Part shown: positions 3,001 through 6,000 of the stretch, piece by piece | Layout: every line of letters starts with the position of its first letter | How positions within the stretch are numbered: the stretch's first letter is position 1 | Source: a virus | Lineage: Duplodnaviria; Heunggongvirae; Uroviricota; Caudoviricetes | Length of the DNA stretch: 8,127 nt | IMG/VR virus record: IMGVR_UViG_3300029647_000026 | Strand: one strand, 5' to 3' | Program-made: the position numbers

Positions 3001-6000
3001 AAAGCAGGGATGCCGCGCCACTTTTCAGCATTCCCGTAACCGACGTGGCATTCTCCAGCGCCTTCCCCGAGGCCGCCACCGCCTGATTCGACTGTACCAG
3101 TGCGGCATTGGCCACAATCATGGCCCGGCGTTTTGCGACGGCATTCTGTGTGGCCAGCGCCTCCGCACTGCTATTTCTGGCCAGTGCAAGTTCAGCCTGT
3201 GCCAGTTGCCAGGCACGTTCTGCCGCCAGCGCGTCAGCTGCCGCCTTACGCTGCACCTGAACAGCCGCATCTGCCTGTGCGGCTGCAAGGGCAACCGTCC
3301 CGGACTTCGCCGCGATCAGCTCTGTGGTGGCCTTTCCCACGCCTGCGGCCATATTGCCAAAGTACCGGGCCACCCCGACGGCAACCAGCGCCCCCGCGGC
3401 TGTTGCCACATTATCAATATTACCGGCAACACCGTTCAGCACGCCGGAGAGCGTTTTCGTCGCTCCGCTGGCTTCATTCGCGCCACCCGCCCAGGCCATA
3501 AAGGCGTTTTCCACCTTTGTGATCCCGTCAGAGACCGTTTCCGGCATGGCGGCATATTCATCACGCAATACCCCCAACTGGCTGATTAACGCAGGAACGA
3601 CTTTATCCGCCGTCAGTTTGCCGTCGTCCGCCATCGCCTTAAGGTCTTTACGGGCCATGCCCATACCCGCAGCCAGTGCACGTACGATCCGGTCTCCGCT
3701 TTCATTGACCGAATTGAATTCCTCACCGCGTAACACACCCTGTGCCAGCGCCTGGCTGAACTGGGTGATCACCGAGCCCGCCTCTGCCGTACTGGCACCG
3801 GAGATTTTCAGCCCCGTGGAAATGGCCTCCGTCACCTTCAGCACATCATCAGCACTGTAACCATATTCACGCATTGAGGCTGCCGAGCGGGCAAACAGGG
3901 CCGCATTATCTGAAAATGCCGTGCCCGTCCGCTGGCTGATATCCATCAGCACTTTCTGTGATGACGAAAATTCATCGGATGACTGCGACGCCTGTTTCAG
4001 TCGGGCATTCACGGAACTCCATTCATCGGCCAGAGAAATCAGGTGTCCGGTGGCAAAGGCACCTGCAAATGCCCCCGCCGTTCCGGCAGCTGAAGCGCGG
4101 ATTTCCGTCAACTGGCTGTTCAGCTCAGCCAGGGCGCGTCGCTGCTCCCGGGCGACTGCGGCAGCCTGACGCCCGCCATTCTGCAGGGTCCGGTAATATT
4201 CACTGCCCATGCGGGAAGCCCGCTGGATCTCCGACTGGAATGACTGCGAATTTGCCGAAATTTTGATAATCAGTTCACGTAACGTCGCCATTCTCCTTTC
4301 TCCGGGCGTAAAAAAACCGCCTCAGCGGTTCTCATCATTCATGACTGTGCTGCAAAGCTCAGCGCGTCTTCCAGCGCCGCAAACGGATCCACCTCCGGCT
4401 TATCCTCATCCTCGCCCCAGCAGAGCATGGCGTCCTTCAGTGCAACATTCATCCCCTGTGCCCCAAAAACCGCTTTCACGATCTGTGCATTACGGATATC
4501 TCCGCGCTCATCACCCAGCGGGGATACCCTGTCGAACTCCATCCACATCATCGCCTCGCTCGCACTCAGGCTGTGCCGCAGTTCGGATAAGGTGCGCCCC
4601 AGACGGAGCGCAAGTCGCATCAGAAAGCGAATTTCCGGGCGGGCTACTTTTTTCTGGCCGACTCTGCATCAGCGATCAGTTCCAGTGCCTGACGCAGCAA
4701 CCGGGCATGTACCGGACCATAGACGGCCAGCACCTGCTCACGGTCGTCCGGAGTGAACACCCGCTGCAGATCCGTATCACACAGGACATCGCAGAACAGC
4801 GTCACATCCGCTTCCAGGTTACGGCGGGTTTTCGCCACCACCGACAGGGTATCGTCATCCTCTCCATCACCATTGAGCACTTCCTGCCACAGATACCAGG
4901 CCTCTGCCGAAGGCTCCCGCAGCACCACGCTGACATTACCCCATTCCGGCACCTTCACCGTTTTATGACGAAACCCTGACAGTCTGGCCAGCGCCAGCGT
5001 TTTCAGATCCTTTTTCATGATGACCCATCCCCTTATCAGGCGGCTGCGCTCACTGTCACGGTGCATTCAACAGACGTCACACTCTGTGCTTTCTCTGCCG
5101 AATCGGTCACCACGCAGGTATATTTCCCCGCATCAGCGGACTGCGCACCTGGCTTACTGAAGGTGTCTGTCGTCTGCCCGTCAACCGGCTGACCATCCTT
5201 CTTCCAGGCGTATTTATACGGCGGCGTTCCCCCGTTGGCACTGACTGACATTGTCAGCAGCGCACCTGTATTCACGGTAAGTGTTTTATCCAGATTTTTC
5301 ACAAACGCCAGCGGTACCACAAAGGACACCGGTTTGCCTTTCAGACGCAGTGAAAACGTTGCTGCCACCACGCCGTTGGTACCGGATGACCAGGTGTGCT
5401 GACGCACTTCCGCCAGGAACTTAAAGCCCTTACCGGACGGAAACTGCACCTTAAACGCATACACCGTGTCATTGTCATAGGCATCACGCAGGGCGTTCTG
5501 GGCCTGATTCAGATAAAAATTACCCGACATGGAAATCTCGGACGACGCCCCCAGACCGTTGATGTTCTCCTGCTCTGTGGAGCAGAGCGTGGTCACATCA
5601 ATATCCTGTTTCTGACCGGCGGTGAACTGGACTTCCTTGATGGTGCAGTCCAGGCGCAGATATTCCGCCTTATCCATAGTTTCAGCAGTCGCCGGGGCAG
5701 ATGAAATCATCACCTGCGTCAGCTGTGAGCGTTCATACAAAGCAGACATTCTGCCTCCTGATAATAAAAAACCCGCACGCGGCGGGGTATGGGTTTTGTA
5801 GAAAAAAAGAAAAAGTCACACCGTGACCTGAAACTCCAGGGTTGCACGGTAACAGCGGTTTTCCGGAATATAGTCCTGCATTTCACTGACGGACCCCGGG
5901 GCCAGCAGCATTATGGCTTCACGGGCGTCCTGACGTATCTGACGCGCCTGCGTCACAGTCCCGGCATAAACGTCTATCTGCACCGACACTGAGGACTCCG

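What the first reader, a model, noticed from the sequence alone, without database searches (positions are those of the whole stretch)
4339..5018. Canonical A_AAA_AAG -1 frameshift site placed exactly at the G stop codon, giving a G-T tail chaperone fusion
The heptamer A_AAA_AAG occupies the last two codons of G (…R-K-K-TAG), and the -1 frame stays open from that point for about 102 codons to the stop at 4339. This reproduces the conserved G/G-T programmed frameshift of long-tailed phages and is visible directly in the sequence. It also means the track's 4339..4620 ORF is not an independent gene.
Basis: partly seen in the sequence, partly recalled or inferred. Interest (0 to 1): 0.4.

Follow-up and report, generated by a model that had tools for sequence, protein, structure and literature searches.

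The report
Known phage tail-chaperone G/G-T frameshift
This is the well-known programmed -1 ribosomal frameshift that makes a long "G-T" version of a phage tail assembly chaperone; the identical 75-base stretch has already been measured at about 7% frameshifting in E. coli, so the finding is correct but ordinary.

Summary
On the minus strand, G (5018..4644, 124 aa) ends AGA AAA AAG TAG. The heptamer A_AAA_AAG is 4653..4647. The -1 frame is open from 4668 and runs 102 codons past the slip to TGA 4341..4339, giving a 226-aa fusion (…SARKK-VARPEIRF…).

G matches Pfam Phage_TAC_1 (1e-61) and PDB 2OB9. The -1 part matches Pfam Phage_tail_T (6e-19). They lie between the major tail gene and the tape measure gene of an HK97/lambda-like E. 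coli prophage (99% to Stx phages; 95% to Sakai Sp9).

In all 10 distinct homologues examined (36-66% identity, plus three near-identical copies), T is in the -1 frame with an in-frame A_AAG in the overlap. In 75 of 76 IMG/VR loci, AAAAAAG-TAG is unchanged while its flanks vary. Residues upstream of the annotated T start (ATG 4620) are conserved, and that ATG has no Shine-Dalgarno sequence.

It is already published. Antonov et al. 2013 cloned a sequence whose listed 75 nt are identical to 4673..4599 and measured 7% ± 0.79 frameshifting. Sharma et al. 2014 list the Sakai orthologue ECs1801 as a safely inferred case.

What remains is an annotation gap (T is filed as a separate 93-aa gene) and an unidentified stimulator. 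Novelty: already known. Interest is low.

The parts
4644..5018 (-). Gene G: tail assembly chaperone, 124 aa plus TAG. This is the product of standard translation.
   Evidence: ORF and translation. Pfam PF06222 Phage_TAC_1, 206.7 bits, E 1.1e-61, full length 1-124/124. phrog_344 tail assembly chaperone, 9e-47. The profile of alignment A1 hits PDB 2OB9 'Tail assembly chaperone', 1.6e-52. RefSeq annotates the same 375-nt CDS.
5029..5034 (-). Shine-Dalgarno-like AAGGGG upstream of the G start codon
   Evidence: Read from the sequence. Anti-SD duplex -8.4 kcal/mol, against a background median of -3.3.
4647..4653 (-). Slippery heptamer A_AAA_AAG in 0-frame register. It covers the last base of AGA plus the last two sense codons of G.
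   Evidence: It is the only in-register A_AAA_AAG in 2327 codons of the window's genes. It is invariant in 75/76 IMG/VR relatives while flanking bases vary. It is also present in Evi-type and Vibrio Pm34 homologues.
4644..4646 (-). 0-frame stop codon TAG directly abutting the heptamer. It is a candidate kinetic stimulator ('shifty stop'); this is inferred.
   Evidence: Read from the sequence. The AAAAAAG-TAG arrangement is shared by the window type, the Evi type (68% aa) and Vibrio Pm34 (48% aa). Other relatives place the site 3, 15 or 30-33 nt before the stop.
4644..4668 (-). Overlap window in which both the 0 frame and the -1 frame are open (22 nt before the TAG). The shift must occur here.
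   Evidence: The upstream -1-frame stop is TGA 4671..4669.
4339..4647 (-). T segment: 102 codons in the -1 frame plus TGA. This is the C-terminal extension of G-T.
   Evidence: Translation. Pfam PF06223 Phage_tail_T, 68.7 bits, E 6e-19. phrog_337 aligns from residue 4, upstream of the annotated ATG, and phrog_14766 positions 125-224 also match.
4339..5018 (-). G-T fusion coding span: 226 aa, with one base (G 4647) read twice.
   Evidence: A reporter with the identical 75-nt junction gave 7% ± 0.79.
4339..4620 (-). The 93-aa ORF that public records annotate as a separate gene ('phage tail assembly protein T'). It is most likely not independently translated.
   Evidence: Annotated separately in RefSeq and GenBank. 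No SD before ATG 4620. -1-frame residues upstream of the ATG are conserved.
4621..4637 (-). Weak hairpin (6 pairs, A-U and G-U rich) starting 9 nt after the heptamer. It is a possible stimulator but is unsupported.
   Evidence: There are no compensatory changes, and the pairing is broken in Vibrio Pm34.
4594..4611 (-). G+C hairpin GCGCUC/GGGCGC, 35 nt after the heptamer, inside the conserved A-L-R-x-G-R codons. Any role in frameshifting is untested.
   Evidence: It is invariant in the 7 sequences compared, so it says nothing either way. Fold z-scores are -1.87 and -0.15.
4310..4330 (-). Terminator-like hairpin AACCGC-TGAG-GCGGTT plus a T run, between the T stop and the tape measure start (ATG 4291)
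   Evidence: Sequence and fold at -10.8 kcal/mol. HK446 has rho-independent terminators annotated at the corresponding place. The consensus scan did not list it.

Best explanation
This is the programmed -1 ribosomal frameshift of the tail assembly chaperone pair G/G-T, in an HK97/lambda-like E. coli prophage of the Stx-phage / Sakai Sp9 type.

Most ribosomes translate G (124 aa) and terminate at TAG 4646..4644. A minority slip. With tRNA-Lys on AAA (4652..4650) and AAG (4649..4647), they move back one base onto A_AAA_AA. This is favoured because E. coli's single tRNA-Lys (mnm5s2UUU) pairs better with AAA than with AAG. These ribosomes then read GTA GCC CGC… for 102 more codons, making the 226-aa G-T protein.

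By analogy with lambda gpG/gpGT, the G domains coat the tape measure protein encoded just downstream. The rare T domain recruits the major tail protein encoded just upstream, and neither G nor G-T ends up in the virion.

Shown: the sequence anatomy, the family membership of both halves, the conservation of the arrangement, and frameshifting at about 7% on this exact sequence in a published reporter assay. Inferred: the two-tRNA slippage route, the role of the abutting stop codon, and the assembly function.
For: - Anatomy.
- Both halves belong to the expected families. PF06222 scores 1.1e-61 and PF06223 scores 6e-19. phrog_14766 spans both halves as one protein. PDB 2OB9 tail assembly chaperone matches at 1.6e-52.
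- Synteny is V - G - T - tape measure - M-like.
- tblastn of the conceptual fusion finds two pieces in different frames in about 200 phage records.
- In all 13 loci inspected (10 distinct homologues, 36-99% identity), T is in the -1 frame and an in-frame A_AAG lies in the overlap. A full A_AAA_AAG or G_GGA_AAG is present in most.
- HK446 and Bcep176 carry joined CDS annotations.
- AAAAAAG-TAG is invariant in 75/76 IMG/VR loci while neighbouring bases vary.
- -1-frame residues P128, F132 and L133, upstream of the annotated ATG, are conserved. ATG 4620 has no SD.
- A 75-nt insert identical to window 4673..4599 gave 7% ± 0.79 frameshifting in E. coli. A G_GGA_AAG relative gave 6% (PMC3711429 Table S2).
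- The Sakai orthologue ECs1801 is 122/124 aa identical with an identical junction. It is listed as cluster A_AAA_AAG_25, 'tail assembly chaperone [true]', by Sharma et al. 2014 (PMC4066793 Table S4).
- A_AAA_AAG is among the most shift-prone motifs in E. coli and is under-represented in frame (z = -10.1).
- The lambda G/GT mechanism is described in PMC5009743.
Against: - No fusion protein from this prophage has been shown in infected cells or during tail assembly. The 7% comes from a GST-MBP reporter carrying a short cassette.
- The reporter cannot separate ribosomal slippage from transcriptional slippage.
- No convincing stimulatory RNA structure was found (z = -1.87 and -0.15; 0 compensatory pairs). 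Yet 7% is about 24 times the 0.29% reported for the bare motif in another reporter. An element is therefore unaccounted for, or the two assays are not comparable.
- Met134 (ATG 4620) is invariant in the 10 homologues. That is also what a conserved internal start codon would look like.
- The exact 226-aa fusion is absent from a 15-billion-protein collection, and public records annotate two genes.
Confidence: 0.92

Rival explanations
1. T is an independent gene. Ribosomes initiate at ATG 4620 (de novo, or by re-initiation after terminating at TAG 4646..4644, 23 nt upstream) and make a free 93-aa T protein. The heptamer would then be incidental.
For: RefSeq, GenBank and most phage records annotate it this way. 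The Met at ATG 4620 is invariant in 10 homologues. In some relatives an ATG lies 2 nt after the G stop or overlaps it (Klebsiella phi12.2, Burkholderia).
Against: There is no Shine-Dalgarno sequence (-3.5 kcal/mol, the background median, against -6.6 to -12.8 for all 8 other starts). -1-frame residues upstream of the ATG are conserved (P128 invariant, F132 and L133 near-invariant), and phrog_337 aligns from residue 4. The shift-prone site is conserved in register across the family. Frameshifting was measured at 7% on the identical sequence. In lambda, T is made only as G-T (PMC5009743).
Confidence: 0.04
2. The fusion arises by transcriptional slippage. RNA polymerase adds one A in the A6 run (4653..4648), giving an mRNA in which G and T are in frame. 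The protein would be identical (…RKKV…).
For: The reporter assay and junction-peptide mass spectrometry cannot tell the two routes apart. Evi-type relatives have A8 and Vibrio Pm34 has A7. A-runs are known slippage sites for polymerases (PMC3711429).
Against: The run here is only A6. The cited work places productive transcriptional slippage at A runs longer than 7. Family members with G_GGA_AAG, which has no homopolymer, frameshift equally well (6%). Others have only GAA_AAG or GCA_AAG. What the family conserves is the in-frame A_AAG codon context, which matters for tRNA re-pairing and not for a polymerase.
Confidence: 0.03
3. This is a decayed prophage or a sequencing artefact: an ancestral single G-T gene was split by a 1-nt indel in a homopolymer.
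For: Homopolymer indels do occur at this site. IMG/VR locus L081 has A7 instead of A8, which throws G into the +1 frame.
Against: The same -1 split is found in 1246 of 5426 complete E. coli genomes and 92 phage records at ≥95% identity. It is also found in all distant homologues. No in-frame G-T version was seen. Functional inducible Stx phages carry it.
Confidence: 0.01

Closest known systems
E. coli O157:H7 Sakai prophage Sp9 ECs1801/ECs1802, and the Antonov et al. 2013 'Phage_TAC' cluster member 15618692
   Same: It is essentially the same locus. ECs_1801 is 122/124 aa identical, the junction is identical, and T is 100/102 identical. The 75-nt insert tested in 2013 is identical to window 4673..4599 and frameshifted at 7%. 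Sharma et al. 2014 list it as A_AAA_AAG_25 [true].
   Different: There are a few substitutions elsewhere (the window is 93-95% identical to Sp9 overall). Its best matches are other Stx-type phages and prophages at 99-99.8%.
Phage HK97-type tail assembly chaperone pair (HK97 tail assembly chaperone / Gp14; HK446 gp12/gp11; PDB 2OB9)
   Same: The Pfam families are the same and aa identity is 60-62%. The gene order is the same, T is in the -1 frame, and the fusion is annotated as a joined CDS in HK446.
   Different: The HK446 shift region is CGG_GAA_AAG, 15 nt before the stop. It is not a canonical X_XXY_YYZ in register, and the overlap is 49 nt. Here a canonical A_AAA_AAG abuts the stop in a 22-nt overlap.
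Bacteriophage lambda gpG/gpGT (Levin, Hendrix & Casjens 1993; Xu, Hendrix & Duda 2004, 2013, 2014)
   Same: Both use a -1 frameshift near the end of G, with the pair placed between the major tail gene and the tape measure gene. The T part is in the same Pfam family (PF06223). The efficiency is low (a few per cent) and sets a G:GT ratio.
   Different: From my own knowledge (Levin et al. 1993), the lambda slip site is G_GGA_AAG; mEp390 here has the same heptamer. The G half here is in a different Pfam family (Phage_TAC_1), and lambda's G family was not hit. Function in tail assembly has been shown for lambda only.
E. coli dnaX and IS3-family (IS911, IS2, IS150) -1 frameshift cassettes
   Same: The heptamer A_AAA_AAG is the same, and so is the tRNA-Lys re-pairing logic.
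   Different: Those cassettes use defined stimulators: an upstream SD-like sequence and/or a downstream stem-loop or pseudoknot. They reach 4-50% or more. Here there is no Rfam frameshift-element match and no upstream SD (Sharma Table S4 'N'). The downstream hairpins are weak and unsupported. Instead a stop codon abuts the site.

Membership tests
G/G-T-type programmed frameshift of long-tailed phage tail assembly chaperones (Xu, Hendrix & Duda 2004) | Two overlapping ORFs lie between the major tail protein gene and the tape measure protein gene | tested here: met
   The order on the minus strand is V-like (5749..5036), G (5018..4644), T (4647..4339), tape measure (4291..1025). Sakai Sp9 and EC2 have the same order.
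G/G-T-type programmed frameshift of long-tailed phage tail assembly chaperones (Xu, Hendrix & Duda 2004) | The downstream ORF is in a shifted frame relative to G, overlaps its 3' end, and lacks its own translation start signals | tested here: met
   The -1 frame is open from 4668, giving a 22-nt overlap. ATG 4620 has no SD (-3.5 kcal/mol, the background median). Conserved coding extends upstream of that ATG.
G/G-T-type programmed frameshift of long-tailed phage tail assembly chaperones (Xu, Hendrix & Duda 2004) | A shift-prone sequence lies in the correct register inside the overlap | tested here: met
   A_AAA_AAG lies at 4653..4647 in the 0-frame register. The chance of this is about 0.003-0.02.
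G/G-T-type programmed frameshift of long-tailed phage tail assembly chaperones (Xu, Hendrix & Duda 2004) | The arrangement is conserved among homologues despite sequence divergence | tested here: met
   All 13 loci (36-99% identity) have T in the -1 frame with an in-frame A_AAG. 75/76 IMG/VR loci keep AAAAAAG-TAG.
G/G-T-type programmed frameshift of long-tailed phage tail assembly chaperones (Xu, Hendrix & Duda 2004) | A fusion protein is actually produced at a low fixed ratio | not testable with these tools
   The literature supplies a direct measurement on the identical 75-nt sequence: 7% ± 0.79 in an E. coli GST-MBP reporter (PMC3711429 Table S2). It has not been shown in the phage context.
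G/G-T-type programmed frameshift of long-tailed phage tail assembly chaperones (Xu, Hendrix & Duda 2004) | G and G-T are both required for tail assembly and absent from virions | not testable with these tools
   This is known for lambda only (PMC5009743). It is inferred here.
Pfam PF06222 Phage_TAC_1 (HK97-type tail assembly chaperone) | Score above the curated gathering threshold over the full domain | tested here: met
   206.7 bits against a cutoff of 25, covering residues 1-124 of a 124-position profile. PDB 2OB9 matches at 1.6e-52.
Pfam PF06223 Phage_tail_T (lambda minor tail protein T) | Score above the curated gathering threshold | tested here: met
   68.7 bits against a cutoff of 25.9, covering residues 28-98 of the -1-frame segment.
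dnaX / IS3-type stimulated -1 frameshift cassette | A_AAA_AAG heptamer | tested here: met
dnaX / IS3-type stimulated -1 frameshift cassette | A defined downstream stem-loop or pseudoknot 5-9 nt after the heptamer, supported by stability or covariation | tested here: inconclusive
   A weak 6-bp A-U/G-U hairpin starts 9 nt downstream, and a GC hairpin starts 35 nt downstream. The z-scores are -1.87 and -0.15. None of the 12 predicted pairs shows a compensatory change. Sharma et al. scored 'structure: Y' for this cluster by their own criteria.
dnaX / IS3-type stimulated -1 frameshift cassette | Match to a curated frameshift-element RNA family, or an upstream SD-like stimulator | tested here: not met
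   No Rfam frameshift element matched at E ≤ 1 in 4250..5100. Sharma Table S4 gives 'SD: N' for the cluster.

The most novel reading that the evidence does not exclude
The UAG placed immediately 3' of the heptamer may itself be the stimulator. Slow termination with AAG in the P site would give tRNA-Lys time to slip back (a -1 'shifty stop'). That could explain why this cassette gives about 7% with no convincing RNA structure, while the bare A_AAA_AAG motif gave 0.29% in another E. coli reporter. This would be a stimulator class not usually credited for G-T frameshifts. It would also cover the Klebsiella relative, which keeps only GCA_AAG_TAA.
Probability: 0.2. Interest if true: 0.3.

Novelty: already known. 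Interest (0 to 1): 0.1.

Why it matters
As biology it adds nothing new. The G/G-T frameshift is a textbook feature of long-tailed phages, and this exact cassette has been measured.

It has two practical uses. First, it marks a systematic annotation error. RefSeq/PGAP and most GenBank phage records file the T part as a free-standing 93-aa 'phage tail assembly protein T'. That ORF is seen on at least 1000 contigs, and the locus is present in 1246 of 5426 complete E. coli genomes. The real 226-aa product is absent from a 15-billion-protein collection.

Second, the family offers a natural series of shift sites at different distances from the stop: A_AAA_AAG-stop, G_GGA_AAG+3, GAA_AAG+15, A_AAA_AAG+30 and GCA_AAG-stop. 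This series could be used to ask what sets the few-per-cent efficiency in the absence of an obvious RNA stimulator.

Tried and rejected
- Downstream RNA stimulator. Folding 4660..4560 and 4646..4590 gave z = -0.15 and -1.87. RNAalifold on 7 junctions gave 12 pairs with no compensatory change. I do not claim a structure.
- Rfam. There was no frameshift-element hit. The only match was a sub-threshold isrK hit (27 bits against a gathering score of 50) over the T 3' end and terminator, most of it the terminator hairpin. I treat it as a probable chance match.
- Plus-strand ORF 4209..4979 (256 aa) and minus-strand +1-frame ORF 4669..4511 (52 aa). Neither has a Pfam match at E ≤ 0.1. I treat both as shadow ORFs.
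- +1 frame as the target. It is open for only 44 codons past the G stop and shows no homology.
- Exact look-up of the 226-aa fusion in the protein collection. It is not present, so annotation gives no independent support for the fusion at this locus.
- The consensus terminator scan did not list the hairpin at 4330..4310, although it is plain in the sequence and folds at -10.8 kcal/mol.
- The IMG/VR scan returned mostly close relatives, in two lineages at ≥89% and ~68% identity. Deep divergence therefore rests on the 10 phage-collection loci.
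Full report
**1. Observation**

All genes in the window are on the minus strand. G starts at ATG 5018..5016, behind an AAGGGG Shine-Dalgarno-like sequence. It ends …GCC AGA AAA AAG TAG, with TAG at 4646..4644.

The heptamer A_AAA_AAG lies at 4653..4647 in the 0-frame register X_XXY_YYZ. The -1 frame has a stop at 4671..4669, so the two frames overlap for only 22 nt. After a -1 slip on the heptamer, the next codon is GTA (4647..4645). The frame then stays open for exactly 102 sense codons, ending at TGA 4341..4339. The result is a 226-aa protein with the junction …SARKK-VARPEIRF….

The bare string AAAAAAG is not rare: 2 were observed against 0.88 expected over both strands. 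An in-register X_XXY_YYZ is rare, however. There are 7 in 2327 codons, and this is the only A_AAA_AAG. The chance of one falling in the ~7 codon positions of the overlap is about 0.02 for any heptamer and about 0.003 for this one. Of the seven, this one is followed by the longest -1 open frame (102 codons against 3-76).

**2. What the two halves are**

G matches Pfam PF06222 Phage_TAC_1 over its full length (206.7 bits, 1.1e-61). The -1 segment matches PF06223 Phage_tail_T (68.7 bits, 6e-19).

In PHROGs, G matches phrog_344 'tail assembly chaperone' and T matches phrog_337. Both halves also match the two halves of phrog_14766, a 224-position family of already-fused proteins. A profile of the family hits PDB 2OB9, 'Tail assembly chaperone', at 1.6e-52.

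The neighbours are, upstream, a major tail protein with an Ig-like domain. Downstream are a 1088-aa tape measure protein with HK97 and lambda domains, then an M-like minor tail protein. Further upstream are the tail terminator, gp10-like, head closure and adaptor genes.

**3. Where it comes from**

The 801-nt region is 99.0-99.4% identical to long-tailed Stx-converting phages (JLK-2012, 2851, YYZ-2008 and many Stx1a/Stx2 phages). It is up to 99.8% identical to prophages in 1246 of 5426 complete E. coli genomes, with up to 7 copies per genome. The window is 93-95% identical to prophage Sp9 of O157:H7 Sakai. There ECs_1801 is 122/124 aa identical to G, the junction is identical, and T is 100/102 identical.

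**4. Conservation of the recoding arrangement**

tblastn of the conceptual fusion against 50,697 phage records finds 248 records. In about 200 of them the match comes as two pieces, G and T, in different frames.

I inspected 13 loci: 10 distinct homologues (36-66% aa identity to the window) plus three near-identical copies. In every one T is in the -1 frame, and an in-frame AAG preceded by A lies in the overlap. The shift sites are as follows.

| Homologue | Shift region | Distance to G stop |
|---|---|---|
| Window type, Evi type, Vibrio Pm34 | A_AAA_AAG | abuts TAG |
| mEp390 | G_GGA_AAG | 3 nt |
| HK446/HK633 (HK97-like) | CGG_GAA_AAG | 15 nt |
| Cronobacter ENT39118 | GTG_GAA_AAG | 3 nt |
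| Burkholderia and Bordetella phages | A_AAA_AAG | 30-33 nt |
| Klebsiella phi12.2 | GCA_AAG | abuts TAA |

HK446 and Bcep176 (gp69/gp69', 'lambda G/T equivalent') carry joined CDS annotations.

Among 76 IMG/VR loci of two lineages (≥89% and ~68% aa identity), 75 keep AAAAAAG-TAG unchanged while bases a few positions either side vary. The exception, L081, has A7 in place of A8.

**5. Is T an independent gene?**

Public records say so: T is annotated as a separate 93-aa CDS in RefSeq, GenBank and Sakai. The 93-aa sequence is seen on at least 1000 contigs, while the exact 226-aa fusion is absent from the protein collection.

The sequence argues against it.
- ATG 4620 has no Shine-Dalgarno sequence. 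Its anti-SD duplex is -3.5 kcal/mol against a background median of -3.3. All eight other starts in the window score -6.6 to -12.8.
- The -1-frame linker upstream of that ATG is conserved as protein (V-A-x-P-x-x-x-F-L-M). P128 is invariant, and F132 and L133 are nearly so, in 10 homologues.
- phrog_337 aligns from residue 4 of the -1 segment.

The caveat is that Met134 is itself invariant. A minor internal-initiation product therefore cannot be excluded from sequence alone.

**6. Direct experimental evidence already in the literature**

Antonov et al. 2013 (PMC3711429) built a GeneTack cluster named 'phage tail assembly chaperone', with 41 genes similar to an HK97 protein, and tested two members in an E. 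coli GST-MBP reporter. [quoted passage not shown] This string is identical to window 4673..4599. The second member, GCG_GGA_AAG_CCG_TAA (mEp390-like), gave 6%.

Sharma et al. 2014 (PMC4066793) list cluster A_AAA_AAG_25: 53 genes, representative ECs1801, 'tail assembly chaperone; [true]'. Their '[true]' here means that -1 PRF 'can be safely inferred'. They score it as having no upstream SD and a predicted downstream structure.

The general phenomenon and its role are reviewed in PMC5009743. G coats the tape measure protein, and the T domain of the rare G-T recruits the major tail protein at a ratio of about 30:1. Neither protein is in the virion.

**7. Mechanism**

The most likely route is tandem slippage of tRNA-Lys from AAA-AAG to AAA-AAA. 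E. coli has a single tRNA-Lys, which pairs better with AAA than with AAG. A_AAA_AAG is among the most shift-prone heptamers in E. coli and is strongly avoided in frame (z = -10.1).

What raises the efficiency to about 7% is not settled. The bare motif gave 0.29% in Sharma's no-stimulator construct, 4.3% with the IS911 stimulators and 39% with the IS3 pseudoknot. These are different reporters, so the comparison is rough.

I found no convincing stimulator. A weak A-U/G-U hairpin starts 9 nt downstream (4637..4621). A GC hairpin lies 35 nt downstream (4611..4594), inside the conserved A-L-R-x-G-R codons. The fold z-scores are -1.87 and -0.15, and none of the 12 predicted pairs shows a compensatory change. 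No Rfam frameshift element matches.

The abutting UAG could act as a 'shifty stop'. However, relatives with the site 3-33 nt from the stop exist, and one of them shifts at 6%. Adjacency is therefore not required for this level of frameshifting.

**8. Rivals**

- Independent initiation of T: see section 5; about 0.04.
- Transcriptional slippage on A6 would give the identical protein and is not excluded by the reporter. But the run is short, and the cited work places productive slippage at A runs longer than 7. Relatives without a homopolymer shift equally well. About 0.03.
- A split pseudogene is excluded by the universality of the -1 arrangement. About 0.01.

**9. Verdict**

This is a member of the G/G-T programmed-frameshift family, of the HK97 Phage_TAC_1 plus lambda-T type. 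The exact sequence has already been catalogued and measured, so it is already known.

What remains of interest is the persistent mis-annotation of T as a separate gene and the unidentified stimulator. Interest is 0.1.

Noticed in passing
window 7749..8125 (minus-strand ORF 7283..8074): A 162-nt tandem repeat of 2.3 copies (90% matches) encodes a repeated ~54-aa unit (…NDAVANIP.PA.GKS.TPDDVRPMLEQMVKEAVSHIPVPRDGRDYDP…). It lies in the C-terminal part of the gene that Sakai Sp9 annotates as an 859-aa 'phage portal protein' (ECs_1795), and phrog_2271 positions 599-859 match it. There is a weak CBM_5_12-like hit at the C-terminus, below the Pfam cutoff. The repeat reaches the window edge.
   Followed up: partly
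window 4310..4330 (-); 5772..5786 (-); 5813..5829 (-): Intrinsic-terminator-like hairpins with T runs lie inside the late operon. One is between the T stop and the tape measure start (AACCGC-TGAG-GCGGTT + T5, -10.8 kcal/mol). Two are between the tail terminator gene and the major tail gene. HK446 has rho-independent terminators annotated at comparable places. They are presumably read through under late antitermination.
   Followed up: partly
window 4310..4377 (-): A sub-threshold Rfam match to isrK, the Hfq-binding sRNA of Salmonella prophage Gifsy-1. It scores 27.1 bits against a gathering score of 50, E 0.001, covering model positions 1-77. It spans the last codons of T and the terminator hairpin. 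Most of the score comes from the terminator stem and the U run, so it is probably a chance or generic match.
   Followed up: partly
L081 (IMGVR_UViG_2531839448_000005), about 1560..1572: An Evi-type relative has A7 instead of A8 in the slippery run. G therefore reads on in the +1 frame instead of stopping at TAG. This is either a homopolymer sequencing error or a real indel in a prophage.
   Followed up: partly
L007 (Klebsiella phage ST13-OXA48phi12.2) 685..705: The junction is GCT_AAA_GCA_AAG_TAA_AAATG, with only a 7-nt overlap. There is no heptamer, only the tetramer A_AAG abutting the stop, and an ATG 2 nt after the stop. This member may rely on single-tRNA P-site slippage at a stop, or on termination-reinitiation.
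   Followed up: no
L005/L006 (HK446, HK633) about 655..672; L008 (Cronobacter ENT39118): The HK97-like members have CGG_GAA_AAG or GTG_GAA_AAG. In the 0-frame register this is not a canonical X_XXY_YYZ, because the P-site GAA would have to re-pair with GGA. Only the A_AAG part is canonical, yet HK446 annotates a joined CDS.
   Followed up: no
window 3332..3338 (-), inside the tape measure gene: An in-register G_GGA_AAG heptamer lies at codon 318 of the tape measure ORF. The -1 frame after it is open for only 28 codons. It is probably incidental, costing a small fraction of truncated product.
   Followed up: partly
window 6600..6603 (-): The head closure gene stop and the likely gp10-like start overlap as ATGA, suggesting translational coupling. 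The listed TTG start at 6624 is probably wrong, since RefSeq uses the 148-aa version. phrog_23409 (264 positions) covers both proteins as if they were fused in some phages.
   Followed up: no
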